Notes under the pieces: generated by a model
What the model was told of the DNA's origin: nothing
Database searches by the model: none
The model's input: only the letters and a program-made list of their open reading frames with translations
Shown here: positions 10,229-27,377 of the stretch, piece by piece
Position numbering within the stretch: position 1 is the stretch's first letter
How the letters are laid out: the number at the start of each line of letters is the position of its first letter
Translations under genes and position numbers: made by a program
Source of the DNA: a virus
Length of the DNA stretch: 64,000 nt
Virus genome (UHGV): UHGV-0287696
Strand: one strand, 5' to 3'

Positions 10229-10789
10229 GTGACTACTTACGTACCTGATTTAAGTCTGGCCTCAGCCGAATTAGTGGTCGCTTTAATCAACCACGATAAC
10301 GGTTCACGGTTGTCTCTAAACGAAATCCGTATTAGCAACATTATGGCAAACCCGTCCCCGACCACTTCGCGTCGTAACACACTGACAGAGATTACAAAAA
10401 TCAGGAAACCTGATGGTGCTTCTGTGGTTGTTTATTACGACCGTTTGGATGCGGACGAAGTGTTAGCGTCTGAACCTATTTTGATTTCGTTAGACGGTAC
10501 CGAAGACAACCTTCGTGACATTTTAGGTGTTGTAAATGAATTCTGCGGAACGAACTTACAACCCGAAGATTTACGTGCTGCAGATATCACCTTAGGTAAC
10601 GAACCCATTGCTGTTAACGTTGCTGACGATTCTCCTGCGTGGATGAATGCGTTTATGGTAACGTTATTCGATACAACCGAACGAGCATTAGCAAACGAAG
10701 ATGACGCGATCTTCTGTATTGGTGATGATGCTGTTCTTACTTTTGAGGTTCCAGATGACGACACAGCTGAAGAAAACCCGGCTACATGA
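10229..10789 (+). CDS. hypothetical protein with shared DLxxIN-NLQxxDL domain
   Basis: ORF track start 10196 lies inside the terminator; GTG at 10229 with GGGAGG 5 nt upstream is the likelier start; C-terminal motif EDNLRDILGVVNEFCGTNLQPEDL recurs in 16184, 26039 and 26901. Confidence 0.5.
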   Translation: MTTYVPDLSLASAELVVALINHDNGSRLSLNEIRISNIMANPSPTTSRRNTLTEITKIRKPDGASVVVYYDRLDADEVLASEPILISLDGTEDNLRDILGVVNEFCGTNLQPEDLRAADITLGNEPIAVNVADDSPAWMNAFMVTLFDTTERALANEDDAIFCIGDDAVLTFEVPDDDTAEENPAT

Positions 10790-10991
10790 ACTTGACCGTT
10801 TTACCGGTAATGGAGGCCAACGCAAACTTTTATCAAAACTTAACAATCCCAAATCATGAAGCGCGGAGTTGGGCATCACTTTCACGTTAGAAGATGATGG
10901 ATTAAAACCAGTATAATAATCCGCTTATAAAAATGTTGAGGGGTAAAACACTTCCTCAGATCTTTTAGCTCCCGATAGAGAATTAAATATC

Positions 10992-13900
10992 ATGGCTAAA
11001 GCGGTAAAGAAAATTCGTTTACACGATTTACGTCCATACACCGGGGATATCGGTGAAGGCGTTTTACTTTTTTCGAAAGACGAAAGGGATTATCAGTTAC
11101 CTGTCCGCGAGATTGTTGCGGATATTGACACCGTCAGAAACGCGGTTGCCGACGCACAAACGGCGGCGGCCAAATCGCAACAGTCTGCAACAGAAGCCAC
11201 ACAAGCAAAAGACTTAGCAGAAACCGCGAAGCAACAAACTGACACGTTAGCTTCCACCGTTAGCGAGCAAGCGGGAACCGTTGCCACTAAAACTGCTGAG
11301 GTTAGCAAAAAACACGCTGAAGTTTTAGCCGCGAAAACTGCCGTAGATACTGTATTACAGTCGGTAAATGAGAAAGCTCAAGCTGTCGCTACAAGCGAAC
11401 AATCGGTGACGGCTGCAGCGGCTGATGTAACTAAGAAAGCAGAAACGGTTACGCAACAGGCCGGACAAGTTCAACAGACGGCTACCGGTGTCGAGAATAC
11501 TGCGGCTTCAGTTGAGGCCAGTAAGGGCGCAGTGGAGAAGATTGCTGCACAGGTCGCGAAAGATAAAGAAAGTTCAGAAGGCGCAGCAACACGTTCGGAG
11601 TCAGCTGCCTTACGTGCGGAGAAAATCGCTGCGCAGGGCTTAATCGACGCTAGTACAACCGGTAAAGGTATCGTTAAACTTAACGATACACTGACTAGCG
11701 AATCCGTGACTGAGGCTGCCACACCGTCCACGGTTAAACAGCTGAATGACGAATTACAGTTAAAAGCCAATAAACATTCGCCGAATTTTACGGGTAAACC
11801 GTCATCCCCAACACCCCCGAAAGATTCAAACGACACGAGTATTTCCACAACGGCCTGGGTGCGTGACGCGATTGCGGAACTGGTTGGTTCTTCACCCGAG
11901 ACGTTAAATACCTTAGCGGAATTAGCTGAGGCGTTAGGTAATGACCCTAACTTCGCAACAACGATTACTGGGGAACTTGCGCAGAAACAACCCCTCAGTC
12001 CGTTGCTCACCGCCATTGCCGCAGTCACCACAGCGGCAAACAAACTCATGTATTTCACTGGCAGTAATAAAGTCGGATTAACGGATTTTACAGAAACGGC
12101 TAGATCCTTGTTAGCGAAAGGGTCAACTGCGGATATCATCAATTTCTTGGGATTAAAAGCCACTGTAGATAAAGCGAATAGCGCGTTACAGAAAAACTCT
12201 AACGGCGCTGATATCCCAGATAAAGAAATGTTTGCTCGCAATATCGGTCTGTCTCCTGACACCTATCTGCGTTTCCGTGGCGAAATGCCAGTAGATGCCG
12301 ATATTAACACATTTGCTCCTGATGCCAATTACACAGGAACGTGGGCTAAGTCGACGTCAACCAATGCGTCGATGGCAAAACATTTCCCAGAAGACGGTGC
12401 AGTCGGTTATCTGGAAGTGTATAAAGCCGGTAATTACAGTGGCGCACAGCGTTTTACCTGCCGTAATGGTAACGTGTACAACCGTATGCTGAGTGGCGCG
12501 TGGAATGGTGCCAATGGACCCTGGTCACCGTGGAGAATGGTAACTACTGGTGTACGTCCGTTATCTACCTCTATAGACTTGAACAGTTTGGGTGGCGCTG
12601 AGCATATGGGTAACTGGCGAAACTCGTCCAGTTCGCTGGCTGTTTTTAGCAGACATTACCCTGAAGAAGGTGGTGGCGCGCAAGGCGTACTAGAAGTAAT
12701 GGAAGGTGGTCTTTTCGGACGGTTGCAACGATACACCACACGTCGTGGTACAATGTATGTCCGTGGTTTGACCGCAACGTGGGATTCATCAAACCCGCAA
12801 TGGGAAGATTGGATTCAGGTTGGTTATCAGACTGACGGTGCTTTCTTTAAAGCCAATTTTGACGATCTCGTTAAACCGGGACGTTTCAGTGTCACTGGTG
12901 AAGCAACTAATGGTCCACTTACCGGTTCTTCTGGTGAAACCATATTAGGCGTTTGTGAAGTTACCTTACGCTTAGACGGTACAGGGGTCGAACAGAATTA
13001 TACTACATACGGTACGGGTGTAGAAACTAAAGGTCGTAAATTCCAACGTATCCGTACGGGTAACGCTTGGAGCGATTGGCGCGAGATTTTCACATCATAT
13101 TCGCTTCCGTTAGTATTAGGTATAGGCGGTGAACGCGCGAATGTTGATCCTTTAGACTGGCAAACCTATGACTTTAAACCGGGTGAGTTAATCTGTACAC
13201 CACTTAACACCATGAAAAACATTCCTGCGGGAATGGATTGGGGTGTTATTGACGGTAACTTAGTTAGCATTCTGGTTGGTCCATCAGATGGCGCATCCTC
13301 AGGCCGGAGTATGTTGGTTTGGCGTAGTACGGTGTCTACTGCCAACTATCGATTCTTTGCAGTACGTATCGCCGGTGAGAAAGGTAGTCGTACGATTACA
13401 CCACGACAGATGCCTGTATTGAATGCAGCACACACCTGGGCAGAAAAACAGACCTTTGCAAAAGGGTTAGCAGGTGAGTTAACAGGCAATGCTTCAACCG
13501 CAACGAAATTAAAGACCGCACGTAGAATTGGTGGAGTCGCTTTCGACGGCAGTGGTGATATTAACCTCCCAGGTGTTAACCAACAGGGTAATCAAAACAC
13601 CACGGGTAATGCCGGTACAGCCACTAAACTTCAAACCGCCAGAAATATTAACGGTGTGAGGTTCGATGGTTCTGCTGACATCAATATCAACACCCTGGTA
13701 GGTCGTGGTCGGGTTACTGCACTAACCGGTTCAAACAAAGGTACGCCTGGTATTCAGATGTACGAAGTTTACAATAACGGTTATCCGACCGCTTATGGTA
13801 ACTTGCTGCATTTGGGCGGTTCTACTGCATTAGGTGAAGGTGAACTGTTAATCGGTTGGTCGGGCACGAGTGGTGCGCACGCACCCGTTTATATTCGTAG

Positions 13901-26038: not shown

Positions 26039-26887
26039 ATGTCTCTTACGTCAAAACAGAAACTGCTAAAACTCATCAACACTGAAAACAATATTGTTCC
26101 GCCATTGACCTTCAGTGATGTTGATATCGGCGAACCTACTGGTACTGGGGTTGATACCCAGGTGGTTCTGACTTCTAAACTCAAAGGCGATGAGTCTACT
26201 ACTTTAACTGTGACTTATCATCGTCGTAATTTGCCCGAATACCTAACAGGTGAGTTGGTATTCGGTAACGATGGTGTTGTAACCGCTACAGATTTGCTTA
26301 ATGCAATCAACGCAAAATACGATTTAAATATCCTGCCGTCGGATATCGTTGATGCGAAAGTTGAAGGTGAAACCCATCAGCTTACCGCTAACGAGAAATC
26401 CTACGAATGGTGTGGCGAGGTGACACTTACGCTACGCGACCCTATTGATTTGGCTAAACTGTTACCTGTTACTCAATTAGAAAACCTGGTAGAGTATCCG
26501 TCCACTAAGAAAGGTAACGCAGCGGTTTATTCTTATCCAATTGACTTCACCGCAGAAAAAGATTACCTCGATCCGATTACCATTAACGACACTGTCGACC
26601 TGGCTGAGTTAGCCACTAAACTGGTCAACGTCGTTGATGAGAAATGGGTAAGTGTACCTAAAAACGCTGCTAATAACCTCTACGGTGCTAAGGTTATCTA
26701 CGATGGCCCTACCGCAGGTTACGAAGGCGCAAATACGAAGTACACGCGTGTGCTGGTACTCGCACTCAGTGGACTGTGTGCTAACCTGACCGGTAATCTG
26801 TTAATCCACTTTAACGGTACCGATCGTCCGAAGTCGAAGATTGAATTAGCTAAAACTAATTCGGTCTTACCGGGATTCTTAGATTAA
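26039..26887 (+). CDS. member of a four-gene paralog family (possible virion protein)
   Basis: 282 aa; N-terminal pattern and DLLNAIN...NILPSDI motif shared with 26901, 30041 and 30652. Confidence 0.6.
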   Translation: MSLTSKQKLLKLINTENNIVPPLTFSDVDIGEPTGTGVDTQVVLTSKLKGDESTTLTVTYHRRNLPEYLTGELVFGNDGVVTATDLLNAINAKYDLNILPSDIVDAKVEGETHQLTANEKSYEWCGEVTLTLRDPIDLAKLLPVTQLENLVEYPSTKKGNAAVYSYPIDFTAEKDYLDPITINDTVDLAELATKLVNVVDEKWVSVPKNAANNLYGAKVIYDGPTAGYEGANTKYTRVLVLALSGLCANLTGNLLIHFNGTDRPKSKIELAKTNSVLPGFLD

Positions 26888-26900
26888 GAGGATTACAGTA

Positions 26901-27377
26901 ATGACCAGTCAAGAAACTATCTTCGACCTTATTAAAAAGGCTAACCCAGACGCTGAGCTCGACACCGCCAAAGTTACATTGGGTGAGCCCGTCGTAAGTA
27001 CCGGTGCGTACAACACCGAAGTTACGGTTGCGTCAATTAAGAATCTCGGTTATGCTAATAAGCAAACGTTCCAGTATAACCGCATTGATGCAGGTTTGTA
27101 TTTCCTCAACGTATTGCCGAAACTGTTAGTTGAATCAGCAACTACGACTGCGGACCTGTTGCCTGTAATTAACGAACAATATGGCTTAACCCTTACTGAA
27201 GACGACGTATGGGTAGAGCAGGTTGGTGAGTTACCGCTGGACGGCAGTACAATCGAGCACGGCATTTTCTTCCGTCCTGAGTGCCTAACCTGGGTCGGTG
27301 GTTTTACAGTGCGCGTTGCGCGTAAGCCGACTGTTGAAACACCGCCAGCTAATCCATCGCGCGCTAAGAAGAAATAA
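26901..27377 (+). CDS. member of a four-gene paralog family
   Basis: 158 aa; VTLGEPV...NTEVTVASIKNL and DLLPVINEQYGLTLTEDDV. Confidence 0.6.
   Translation: MTSQETIFDLIKKANPDAELDTAKVTLGEPVVSTGAYNTEVTVASIKNLGYANKQTFQYNRIDAGLYFLNVLPKLLVESATTTADLLPVINEQYGLTLTEDDVWVEQVGELPLDGSTIEHGIFFRPECLTWVGGFTVRVARKPTVETPPANPSRAKKK

What the first reader, a model, noticed from the sequence alone, without database searches (positions are those of the whole stretch)
10229..27377. Recurrent T-x-DL-(L/I)-x-x-IN...G-x-NL-(Q/x)-x-x-DL domain in four unlinked proteins
The motif appears near the C-terminus of the 10229 protein and the 644-aa protein at 16184, and within the paralogs at 26039 and 26901. It looks like a mobile small domain, possibly an Ig-like or carbohydrate-binding decoration module, distributed across fibre-adjacent genes.
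Basis: seen in the sequence. Interest (0 to 1): 0.5.

Follow-up and report, generated by a model that had tools for sequence, protein, structure and literature searches.

The report
DUF7941 fibre-scaffold module, six copies
The repeated motif is real: it is one helix and loop of the DUF7941 domain, a known giant-phage virion module thought to link head-to-tail into host-sensing filaments, and it occurs six times here, once fused to a sugar-cutting enzyme.

Summary
The motif T-x-DL-L-x-x-IN...NL...DL is helix 2 and the following loop of a ~145-residue alpha/beta domain. That domain is the N-terminal domain (NTD) of Pfam PF25613 (DUF7941). All four ORFs pass Pfam's gathering score. Two more copies lie just outside the stated range (30041-30586, 30652-31182), so the window has six.

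The window is the fibre and peripheral-baseplate region of an undeposited ~223-kb SPN3US-like jumbo phage. The family equals SPN3US "paralog family B". A 2026 Goslar preprint shows that one member forms filaments and proposes a host-sensing fibre cloud.

New here:
- P2 joins a six-hairpin glycosidase head, borrowed from prophage tail fibres, to a C-terminal DUF7941.
- The linkers carry a conserved L-D/N-G-F/L motif.
- P1/P2-type genes always precede fibres that share a 41-residue N-terminus.
- Published evidence on where the family sits in the virion (head or baseplate) is in conflict.

Verdict: a new member of a known kind, of moderate interest.

The parts
10229..10789 (+). P1, 186 aa. Single DUF7941 N-terminal domain (window 10250-10708) plus an acidic tail carrying the 'AIFCIGDDAVLTFEVP' peptide (10706-10753). 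Ortholog of SPN3US gp122.
   Evidence: Pfam PF25613 at E 3e-19; phrog_2935; GTG start with a GGGAGG Shine-Dalgarno sequence; 46% identity to the Seoulvirus JN03 counterpart of SPN3US gp122 and 42% to the part of SPN3US gp122 held.
16184..17593 (+). P2 head, aa 1-470: N-terminal helix, beta-sandwich (aa 35-114) and an (alpha/alpha)6 six-hairpin glycosidase-like barrel (aa 130-460).
   Evidence: AF2 pLDDT above 90. Foldseek PDB matches: rhamnosidase 4xhc at E 2.5e-9, beta-1,2-glucanase, invertases, GH63 and GH105. 45-60% identical to the C-terminal heads of enterobacterial prophage tail fibres whose N-termini are PF08400, PF12571, PF18668 or PF03406. phrog_13714 and phrog_7032, 'tail fiber protein'.
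17624..18118 (+). P2 C-terminal DUF7941 N-terminal-type domain (17624-18088) plus the tail peptide 'DLIVTADNRVLTFGGH' (18068-18115).
   Evidence: Pfam at E 1e-13 over aa 482-616. BLASTP against P1 at E 1.4e-25. In sister phages this position holds a free-standing 171-aa DUF7941 gene; window 16138-17735 replaces 186 nt of it.
26039..26887 (+). P3, 282 aa, a full-length DUF7941 protein. N-terminal domain at 26039-26497; linker with 'DPIDLAKLLPVTQLENLVEYP' at 26438-26500; C-terminal domain; C-terminal 'SVLPGFLD' at 26861-26884. Counterpart of phiKZ gp127, SPN3US gp138 and Goslar gp33/gp34.
26901..27377 (+). P4, 158 aa: N-terminal domain only, plus a Pro/Lys-rich tail (27321-27374) with no L-D-G-F motif. 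It is the positional counterpart of phiKZ gp126 and is closest to the N-terminal part of SPN3US gp141.
   Evidence: Pfam at E 1e-29. 40% identity to the N-terminal part of gp141. The phiKZ gene order gp127 then gp126 mirrors P3 then P4.
30041..30586 (+). Divergent N-terminal domain plus a 'LEGELDGFTAP' tail (30539-30571). Ortholog of the abundant SPN3US virion protein gp160.
   Evidence: Pfam at 32 bits, E 1.2e-7. phrog_4862 at E 5e-45. 46% identity to gp160. jackhmmer.
30652..31182 (+). P6, 176 aa: a sixth copy and tandem paralog of P5, with a 'TNGELDGFTS' tail (31150-31179).
   Evidence: Pfam at 41 bits, E 2e-10. phrog_4862 at E 1e-33. 35% identity to gp160.
10992..15590 (+). Associated gene: a 1532-aa tail fibre immediately downstream of P1. 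It has Phage_fiber_2 repeats, a T4 gp34-type trimerisation domain and an S74 chaperone. Its first 41 aa (10992-11114) form the shared N-terminal peptide.
   Evidence: Pfam; N-terminal comparison at 39% identity, E 9e-9.
15593..16096 (+). Associated gene: a Gp38_N-type tail-fibre adhesin lying between the fibre and P2.
   Evidence: Pfam PF21721 at E 4e-20; phrog_1121.
18118..18738 (+). Associated gene: a 206-aa short fibre-like protein immediately downstream of P2. Its first 41 aa (18118-18240) are the same N-terminal peptide as in the 1532-aa fibre and in SPN3US gp123.
   Evidence: phrog_33169 matches the C-terminal end of an 842-position profile.

Best explanation
The motif marks the N-terminal domain (NTD) of the DUF7941 module (Pfam PF25613, equal to SPN3US 'paralog family B'). 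This is a ~145-residue alpha/beta domain of giant phiKZ-like phages (chimalliviruses), followed by a flexible linker. The window carries six genes with it, in three pairs.

Proposed mechanism:
- The linker or tail of one subunit docks onto the NTD of the next, so subunits join head-to-tail into flexible chains.
- The chains are rooted at the outer rim of the baseplate.
- P3 and P4 (counterparts of phiKZ gp127 and gp126) are the baseplate-proximal pair.
- P5 and P6 (counterparts of SPN3US gp160) are bulk chain subunits.
- P1 and P2 are adaptor subunits placed next to fibre genes.
- P2 additionally carries a glycosidase-type head taken from prophage tail fibres, so it would display an enzyme that binds or cuts a host surface polysaccharide.
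- The domain also serves as a conserved recombination handle that lets cargo be swapped.

Shown here: the homology, the fold, the domain architectures, the gene fusion and its breakpoint, and the conserved linker motif.
Taken from the literature: filament formation by Goslar gp22, high virion copy numbers, and gp127 at the phiKZ baseplate rim.
Inferred: head-to-tail docking for these six proteins, their outward location, the role assigned to each subunit, and glycosidase activity of P2.
For: Family membership. All six ORFs pass Pfam PF25613. The independent HMM gives 52-123 bits against at most 8.6 bits for shuffles.

Literature.
- gp127 terminates the band of five gp139 dimers in each star lobe of the phiKZ outer peripheral baseplate, which is the fibre-attachment platform (PMC13250141).
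- Goslar gp22 forms filaments under negative stain. gp22 is present at ~580 and gp23 at ~2140 copies per virion. AlphaFold3 predicts head-to-tail dimers. Some members carry CBM, GH or LRR cargo (bioRxiv 10.64898/2026.04.21.720040).

Family survey. 2106 clusters match at E<=1e-3. Of the best 150, 56 carry 2-4 modules in tandem with a period of ~165 aa, that is, covalent versions of the proposed chain.

Linker motif. A [LMIV]-x-G-[FLYIM] motif (core L-[DNS]-G-[FLY]) occurs in 48% of 181 post-NTD segments (25% for the strict form). Shuffles give 11% (1.5% strict). It is also found in the inter-module linkers of tandem proteins. P3, P5 and P6 have it.

Cargo in relatives. GP38 adhesin, Laminin_G_3/ConA lectin, trans-sialidase lectin, BNR, beta-propeller, Ig_2 and SPRY domains, all of surface-recognition type.

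P2.
- The head is modelled at pLDDT above 90 as a six-hairpin glycosidase fold.
- The same head sits at the distal end of prophage tail fibres that carry four different N-terminal anchors.
- Sister phages have a free-standing 171-aa DUF7941 gene at this locus. The breakpoint lies inside the NTD, so the exchange used the domain as its homology arm.

Gene pairing. A P1/P2-type gene is immediately followed by a gene with a shared 41-aa N-terminus twice in the window, in SPN3US (gp122 then gp123), and in 9 of 10 IMG/VR loci.
Against: - SPN3US paralog family B, shown here to be DUF7941, was detected in purified tailless particles of two different mutants. It was therefore classed as head protein, possibly ejected (PMC5105663, PMC5694885, PMC10052503). 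A purely baseplate-rooted filament does not explain this.
The linkers, the P3 C-terminal domain and the DUF7941 part of P2 were modelled at low confidence.
- The filament-cloud model is a preprint proposal. It rests on one purified protein, AlphaFold predictions and copy-number estimates.
- P4 lacks the linker motif.
- P2 has its cargo N-terminal, an arrangement not seen among the best 150 family representatives. How it would enter a chain is therefore unknown.
- The gene-pair evidence comes from one phage lineage plus SPN3US, so it is not phylogenetically independent.
Confidence: 0.65

Rival explanations
1. Head-associated proteins. The DUF7941 proteins are components of the capsid, either internal (ejected with the DNA) or attached to the head. 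They are not baseplate filaments. The fibre-gene neighbourhood would then be only a consequence of late-gene clustering.
For: SPN3US gp138-154 (a 17-member family in the 2016 paper, 20-21 members with gp160 and others in later counts) were found in tailless particles of the 64_112(am27) and 255(am107) mutants. gp141 and gp160 are among the most abundant virion proteins and were annotated 'head ejection?'. The thousands of copies per Goslar virion are invisible in cryo-EM maps, which fits disordered internal material as well as flexible external material.
Against: The phiKZ gp127 NTD is modelled in baseplate-rim density. P2 and many relatives fuse the module to glycosidase, lectin and GP38 adhesin domains, which only make sense outside the virion. 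[quoted passage not shown] Self-assembling filaments could co-purify with heads.
Confidence: 0.2
2. A static baseplate brick only. The domain is simply a structural cap or spacer of the peripheral baseplate, as seen for one gp127 per star lobe in phiKZ. There is no polymerisation. The many paralogs are alternative or redundant caps.
For: The only experimentally modelled copy is a single gp127 NTD per star lobe. The Goslar maps show no DUF7941 density.
Against: Copy numbers of hundreds to thousands per virion and filament formation by purified gp22. Tandem arrays of 2-4 modules and the conserved linker motif. Cargo-bearing members up to 1970 aa.
Confidence: 0.1
3. The domain is itself an Ig-like or carbohydrate-binding decoration module that binds host glycans directly.
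For: It occurs in fibre-adjacent genes. Relatives contain Ig_2 and lectin domains elsewhere in the same chains.
Confidence: 0.04
4. The motif is a chance or compositional resemblance.
For: Pairwise BLASTP for some pairs is weak, with E-values of 4e-4 to 0.02.
Against: Pfam E-values run down to 1e-53. Independent-HMM scores are 52-123 bits against at most 8.6 bits for shuffles. The structural match to gp127 supports homology.
Confidence: 0.01

Closest known systems
Pfam PF25613 DUF7941, as characterised in phage Goslar (gp22, gp23 and eight others; bioRxiv 10.64898/2026.04.21.720040)
   Same: Same domain: all six window ORFs pass the gathering score. Same module plan of NTD, then linker, then an optional C-terminal domain. 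P3 is full-length like gp22; P4 to P6 and P1 are NTD plus linker like gp23. Several paralogs per genome, and some are fused to glycoside-hydrolase or lectin cargo.
   Different: In Goslar gp86, gp92 and gp161 the module is N-terminal and the cargo follows it. In P2 the cargo is N-terminal and the module is C-terminal, an arrangement not seen among the best 150 family representatives. The window proteins are only ~23-31% identical to Goslar gp33/gp34. Filament formation has been shown only for Goslar gp22.
phiKZ gp127 and gp126 (PDB 9XQD; PMC13250141)
   Different: Sequence identity is 17-26%. phiKZ is reported to have three family members (gp126, gp127, gp143); this window alone has six. The window contains no homolog of the gp139/gp32 spoke protein, so the contact partner was not examined.
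SPN3US 'paralog family B' (gp138-154, gp160, gp122; Thomas laboratory 2016-2023)
   Same: Orthologous and syntenic. P1 matches gp122, P3 matches gp138, P4 matches the N-terminal part of gp141, and P5/P6 match gp160. The same flanking genes follow: a PG_binding_3 protein, a tail-assembly-like protein, radical-SAM genes, Cys-rich proteins and the gp167-170 fibre paralogs.
   Different: SPN3US has an array of ~17 genes between gp138 and gp156; this phage has only P3 and P4 there. SPN3US has no P2-like fusion. The SPN3US authors assign the family to the head, which conflicts with the baseplate and filament assignment.
Conserved anchor domains of modular tail spikes and fibres (for example PF18668 TSP1/gp66 N-terminal, PF08400 prophage tail fibre N-terminal)
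   Same: Works alike: a conserved virion-attachment module joined to exchangeable receptor-binding heads, with recombination at the module boundary. The P2 head is found behind four such anchors in prophages.
   Different: There is no sequence or fold relationship. Those anchors are N-terminal and trimeric. DUF7941 is proposed to chain head-to-tail, and in P2 it is C-terminal. This is an analogy of function, not membership.

Membership tests
Pfam PF25613 DUF7941 | Sequence match to the family HMM at or above the 27-bit gathering score | tested here: met
   P1 69.9, P2 51.9, P3 182.8, P4 104, P5 32 and P6 41 bits.
Pfam PF25613 DUF7941 | N-terminal globular domain with the fold of the phiKZ gp127 NTD | tested here: met
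   [not shown]
Pfam PF25613 DUF7941 | Module plan: NTD, disordered linker, optional C-terminal globular domain | tested here: met
   P3 matches profile positions 5-275 of 276. P1, P2 and P4 match only ~3-155, P6 matches 7-169 and P5 only 10-85. The P3 linker has pLDDT below 50. The linker motif is conserved across the family.
Pfam PF25613 DUF7941 | Encoded by a chimallivirus (phiKZ-like nucleus-forming jumbo phage) | tested here: inconclusive
   Gene order is syntenic with Seoulvirus SPN3US/JN03, and the source contigs are ~223 kb. Hallmark genes such as chimallin and PhuZ lie outside this window. The family is also reported in Spiroplasma surface proteins (PMC13375240), so the restriction is not absolute.
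Pfam PF25613 DUF7941 | Head-to-tail self-assembly into filaments | not testable with these tools
   Only single-chain prediction is available. Indirect support comes from tandem arrays of 2-4 modules in 56 of 150 representatives and from the enriched linker motif.
Pfam PF25613 DUF7941 | Incorporation into virions at high copy number | not testable with these tools
   Known for the orthologs SPN3US gp141 and gp160 and for Goslar gp22 and gp23 from published mass spectrometry.
SPN3US paralog family B | Homology and synteny with SPN3US gp138-154, gp160 and gp122 | tested here: met
   The independent NTD HMM hits gp138-145, 148, 151, 154, 155 and 160. tblastn identities are 35-46% with matching gene order.
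   [not shown]
Six-hairpin (alpha/alpha)6 glycosidases (P2 head only) | (alpha/alpha)6 barrel fold | tested here: met
   Model pLDDT above 90. 67 PDB matches at E<=1e-3; among the top 50 are GH78-type rhamnosidase, GH144, GH100, GH63, GH105 and AGE epimerases.
Six-hairpin (alpha/alpha)6 glycosidases (P2 head only) | Conserved catalytic acid residues, and assignment to a specific CAZy family | not tested
   No Pfam or PDB sequence match for the head. Sequence identity to the structural matches is only 8-14%. Activity and substrate are unknown.

The most novel reading that the evidence does not exclude
DUF7941 proteins form a coded heteropolymer, in which the C-terminal tail type decides what each subunit plugs into. 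Three tail types are seen: L-D-G-F (P3, P5, P6), a repeated hydrophobic 'x-L-T-F-G' peptide (P1, P2), and a basic Pro/Lys tail (P4). Under this reading, P1/P2-type subunits are dedicated sockets for fibres that start with the shared 41-residue peptide (the 1532-aa fibre, the 206-aa protein, SPN3US gp123). The phage would then hang classical T4-like fibres and a prophage-derived glycosidase on a flexible chain rather than directly on the baseplate. The same chains would also stick to heads, which would explain the SPN3US tailless-particle data.
Probability: 0.2. Interest if true: 0.6.

Novelty: new member of a known kind. Interest (0 to 1): 0.35.

Why it matters
The domain itself is catalogued, so the finding is not a discovery of a new family. 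It matters in three smaller ways.

First, it ties together three literatures that do not cite each other: Pfam DUF7941 and the Goslar filament cloud, phiKZ gp127 at the baseplate rim, and SPN3US "paralog family B head proteins". Putting them side by side exposes an unresolved contradiction about where hundreds to thousands of virion protein copies sit.

Second, P2 is a natural experiment. A tail-fibre glycosidase head from temperate phages has been grafted onto DUF7941 by recombination inside the domain. This is comparative evidence that the module faces the host and acts as an exchangeable anchor, which is relevant to host-range engineering of jumbo phages.

Third, the phage lineage is common as ~223-kb contigs in Salmonella, E. 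coli, Shigella and Enterobacter assemblies, yet it has no close isolate in the phage collection searched (INPHARED release of 31 August 2025). Its receptor-binding apparatus is therefore worth knowing.

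Tried and rejected
- The search for homologous proteins with P3 alone returned only relatives at >=79% identity. It gave no alignment depth for the P3 C-terminal domain, so the linker and C-terminal domain of the model are unreliable.
- Two attempts to add divergent DUF7941 rows to the P2 alignment were misaligned by MAFFT (A5 and A6). I used a clean 20-row alignment (A7). As a result the DUF7941 part of the P2 model is low-confidence. Whether the 'VLTF' tail folds back on its own NTD could therefore not be judged.
- PDB sequence and profile searches for the P2 head found nothing. Only the fold search worked.
- My regular expression for the second tail type ('B') was too strict and matched nothing. 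That tail class is described from examples only.
- P0321 looked as if it ended in a similar '...ALTFGG' tail, but only in MAFFT's forced alignment. Its real C-terminus is different and it has no DUF7941.
- The search for related loci for P1-type genes gave only 10 loci, nearly all from the same lineage. The gene-pair rule is therefore not tested across distant phages.
- The Goslar gp32 / phiKZ gp139 spoke protein has no homolog in the window.
- Rfam found nothing in 9000-32000.
- A chance or compositional origin was rejected.
- An Ig or CBM fold was rejected.

Full report
**1. What is there**

The region lies on the + strand of a phage late-gene block.
- P1, 10229-10789, 186 aa. It has a GTG start behind a GGGAGG ribosome-binding site.
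- P2, 16184-18118, 644 aa.
- P3, 26039-26887, 282 aa.
- P4, 26901-27377, 158 aa.

**2. Is it more than chance?**

Yes.
- All four ORFs match Pfam PF25613 (DUF7941) above its curated 27-bit threshold, with E-values of 3e-19, 1e-13, 1e-53 and 1e-29.
- P3 covers the whole 276-position profile. P1, P2 and P4 cover only positions ~3-155.
- With composition-based statistics and SEG filtering, P1 aligns to the last 169 residues of P2 at E 1.4e-25. The other pairs are individually weak, at E 4e-4 to 0.02.
- As a composition-controlled test I built an HMM from 131 N-terminal domains of other genomes, each <40% identical to any window protein. The window proteins score 52-123 bits. Roughly 450-470 scored residue shuffles of each (of 500 made) never exceed 8.6 bits.

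**3.

A profile scan and jackhmmer run over all six-frame ORFs of the window find two further members:
- P5, 30041-30586, 181 aa.
- P6, 30652-31182, 176 aa.

Both pass Pfam's threshold (32 and 41 bits) and belong to phrog_4862. No seventh copy is detectable. The minus-strand ORF 29987-30463 listed mechanically in that region is a shadow of P5.

**4. What the motif is structurally**

- AlphaFold2 on P3, with a 22-row alignment, gives a confident N-terminal domain (aa 1-134, pLDDT 75-87). The linker and C-terminal domain are unreliable.
- 'T-x-DL-L-x-x-IN' is helix 2 (aa 83-94). The 'NL...D(L/I)' part is the loop and strand that follow.
- Foldseek against the PDB gives a single significant hit: chain 0 of 9XQD, the phiKZ gp127 N-terminal domain (E 1.7e-5, probability 1.0).
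- A sequence search of the PDB also finds PHIKZ127, at E 7e-7.

**5. Genomic setting**

- The window has no close relative among 50,697 deposited phages. DNA identity is at most ~75%, except for short stretches.
- Its proteins occur on ~220-227-kb contigs in many Salmonella, E. coli, Shigella and Enterobacter assemblies and in metagenomes.
- Gene order matches Seoulvirus SPN3US/JN03:
  - P1 corresponds to gp122.
  - P3 corresponds to gp138.
  - P4 corresponds to the N-terminal part of gp141.
  - The genes at 27439, 28137, 28765 and 29423 correspond to gp156-159.
  - P5 and P6 correspond to gp160.
  - Then follow two radical-SAM genes, Cys-rich proteins and the large fibre paralogs gp167-170 (window 36802-51858).
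  - Identities are 35-46%.
- Where SPN3US has ~17 paralogs between gp138 and gp156, this phage has only P3 and P4.
- The order and sizes of P3 then P4 mirror phiKZ gp127 then gp126.
- P3's Goslar matches are gp34 and gp33, which lie next to the spoke protein gp32.

**6. What is known about the family**

Three bodies of literature describe it.

(a) SPN3US work named it 'paralog family B'. The family has 17-21 members, and gp141 and gp160 are among the most abundant virion proteins. It was classed as head protein because members were detected in tailless particles of two mutants (PMC5105663, PMC5694885, PMC10052503). My NTD HMM hits SPN3US gp138-145, 148, 151, 154, 155 and 160. Family B and DUF7941 are therefore the same thing.

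(b) The 2026 phiKZ atlas places one gp127 N-terminal domain at the end of the gp139 band in each star lobe of the outer peripheral baseplate. That region is the fibre-attachment platform (PMC13250141).

(c) A 2026 Goslar preprint names the DUF7941 family and reports the following:
- It estimates ~580 copies of gp22 and ~2140 of gp23 per virion.
- It shows filaments of purified gp22.
- It predicts head-to-tail docking of one subunit's linker onto the next subunit's N-terminal domain.
- It proposes a micron-scale 'fibre cloud' for host recognition.

The preprint does not mention the SPN3US data.

A 2026 Spiroplasma genome paper reports the domain in Spaid-like surface proteins. The family is therefore not strictly confined to chimalliviruses.

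**7. New evidence from this window and the family survey**

(i) *Family survey.* An exhaustive profile search finds 2106 clusters at E<=1e-3. Of the best 150:
- 94 have one module, 42 have two, 13 have three and 1 has four, with a period of ~165 aa.
- Long proteins, up to 1970 aa, carry the module or modules N-terminally.

(ii) *Linker motif.* Directly after the domain there is a conserved motif, [LMIV]-x-G-[FLYIM], often L-D/N-G-F/L-x-Y-P.
- It is present in 48% of 181 post-domain segments (25% in strict form). Shuffles give 11% (1.5% strict).
- It also occurs in the inter-module linkers of tandem proteins.
- P5 (GELDGFTAP), P6 (GELDGFTS) and P3 have it. In P3 the linker reads VTQLENLVEYP and the C-terminus reads SVLPGFLD.
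- P1 and P2 end instead in a hydrophobic 'D-D-A-V-L-T-F' or 'N-R-V-L-T-F-G' peptide. Elsewhere this peptide is repeated, for example LLLDGGGNLLLDGGGQLLVG.
- P4 has a basic Pro/Lys tail.

(iii) *Cargo in relatives.* The fused domains are of surface-recognition type throughout: GP38 adhesin, ConA-like lectin, trans-sialidase lectin, BNR, beta-propeller, Ig_2 and SPRY.

(iv) *P2 is a fusion.*
- Residues 1-470 are 45-60% identical to the C-terminal heads of enterobacterial prophage tail fibres. Those fibres have four different kinds of N-terminal anchor.
- The P2 head is modelled at pLDDT above 90 as a beta-sandwich plus an (alpha/alpha)6 barrel. It matches rhamnosidase, beta-1,2-glucanase, invertases, GH63 and GH105.
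- Sister phages carry a free-standing 171-aa DUF7941 gene at this locus (P0054, a cluster with 186 members).
- Window 16138-17735 replaces 186 nt of that gene, and the downstream junction lies inside the domain.
- The exchange therefore used DUF7941 as a homology arm, and the donor was already a head-DUF7941 fusion.
- None of the other 96 head homologs has DUF7941. None of the best 150 family members has a C-terminal module behind N-terminal cargo.

(v) *Gene pairing.*
- P1 is followed by the 1532-aa fibre. P2 is followed by a 206-aa protein.
- Both downstream proteins, and SPN3US gp123 downstream of gp122, begin with the same 41-residue peptide, MAxxVKKxRLHELxxY...Y(K/Q)LP (39% identity, E 9e-9).
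- In 9 of 10 IMG/VR loci the gene after a P1/P2-type gene starts this way, although the C-terminal parts vary.

**8. Most likely mechanism**

The domain is a connector, not a binder. Subunits chain head-to-tail through linker-onto-domain docking, or are chained covalently in tandem proteins. The chains are rooted at the baseplate rim through the P3/P4 (gp127/gp126) pair, extended by abundant small subunits (P5/P6, matching gp160), and decorated with cargo.

P1 and P2 look like adaptors associated with fibres that share a common N-terminal peptide. P2 additionally displays a glycosidase-type head.

What is shown here: homology, fold, architectures, the fusion and its breakpoint, motif enrichment, and gene pairing.
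What is taken from papers: filaments of Goslar gp22, copy numbers, and gp127 at the baseplate rim.
What is inferred: oligomerisation of these particular proteins, their outward location, the subunit roles, and enzymatic activity of P2.

**9. The main objection**

The SPN3US tailless-particle data argue that at least the abundant members travel with heads. Possible reconciliations are co-purifying self-assembled filaments, or chains that also adhere to the head or neck. None of these could be tested here.

I put the connector/filament explanation at about 0.65, a head-associated role at about 0.2, and a static baseplate brick at about 0.1.

**10. Verdict**

It is wrong on the kind of domain: not Ig and not CBM.

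The family is already catalogued and has recently been characterised, so this is a new member of a known kind. Four modest novelties emerge: the reversed-order glycosidase fusion P2, the tail-type classes, the pairing with fibres that share an N-terminal peptide, and the explicit link to SPN3US family B with the location conflict that link exposes.

Noticed in passing
window 35930-36737 (-), with 32433-34662 (-): Two paralogous 132-aa proteins are made almost entirely of Cys/Gly/Ser repeats (CSGGCSGxC; phrog_6085). Downstream on the same minus strand, separated by a 299-aa ORF, are two radical-SAM/4Fe-4S genes. The arrangement is conserved in SPN3US (gp163-166). It looks like a RiPP-like or cross-linked structural protein system inside a jumbo-phage fibre gene cluster.
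   Followed up: partly
window 22583-22650: An intergenic stretch of ~40-70 nt is 95-100% identical to unannotated DNA in Erwinia phiEaH2, Asesino and Stratton and in SPN3US-like Salmonella phages, while the surrounding DNA is at most 75% identical. It contains an AT-rich TATATATTAC box followed by a GTGAGAG...CTCTCAC hairpin just upstream of the ORF at 22664. This is probably a conserved phage promoter with a 5' hairpin. There is no Rfam match.
   Followed up: partly
window 10992-11114 and 18118-18240: A second recurrent module: the 1532-aa tail fibre and the 206-aa protein share a 41-residue N-terminus (39% identity). SPN3US gp123 has it too. Each gene sits immediately downstream of a P1/P2-type DUF7941 gene.
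   Followed up: yes
window ~14500-15750 (fibre C-terminus and gp38-like adhesin 15593-16096): A T4-type long-tail-fibre tip (gp34 trimerisation domain, S74 chaperone) and a Gp38_N adhesin occur in a chimallivirus. Stretches of 150-485 nt of this DNA are 85-94% identical to Yersinia phage vB_YpM_39 and Escherichia phage CMS-2020a, which indicates recent horizontal transfer of receptor-binding modules.
   Followed up: partly
whole window; source contigs: Exact or near-exact copies of the window proteins occur on ~220-227-kb contigs in many NCBI assemblies of Salmonella, E. coli, Shigella and Enterobacter isolates. No phage closer than ~75% DNA identity is in the deposited phage collection. This suggests a widespread jumbo phage carried along with cultured isolates (carrier state or pseudolysogeny).
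   Followed up: partly
window 36802-51858 (-): Four large paralogous virion proteins (401, 1727, 1401 and 1440 aa) share an N-terminal domain (phrog_2163). They correspond to SPN3US gp167-170 and to the phiKZ gp131-like fibre paralogs that form hetero-hexameric fibres.
   Followed up: partly
[not shown]
   Followed up: no
window 23760-24188 and 25441-25872: Two paralogous 142/143-aa ORFs of unknown function share N-terminal sequence. They lie between the small early-type genes and P3, each next to a larger ORF (23012-23788 and 24211-25371), which suggests a local duplication.
   Followed up: no
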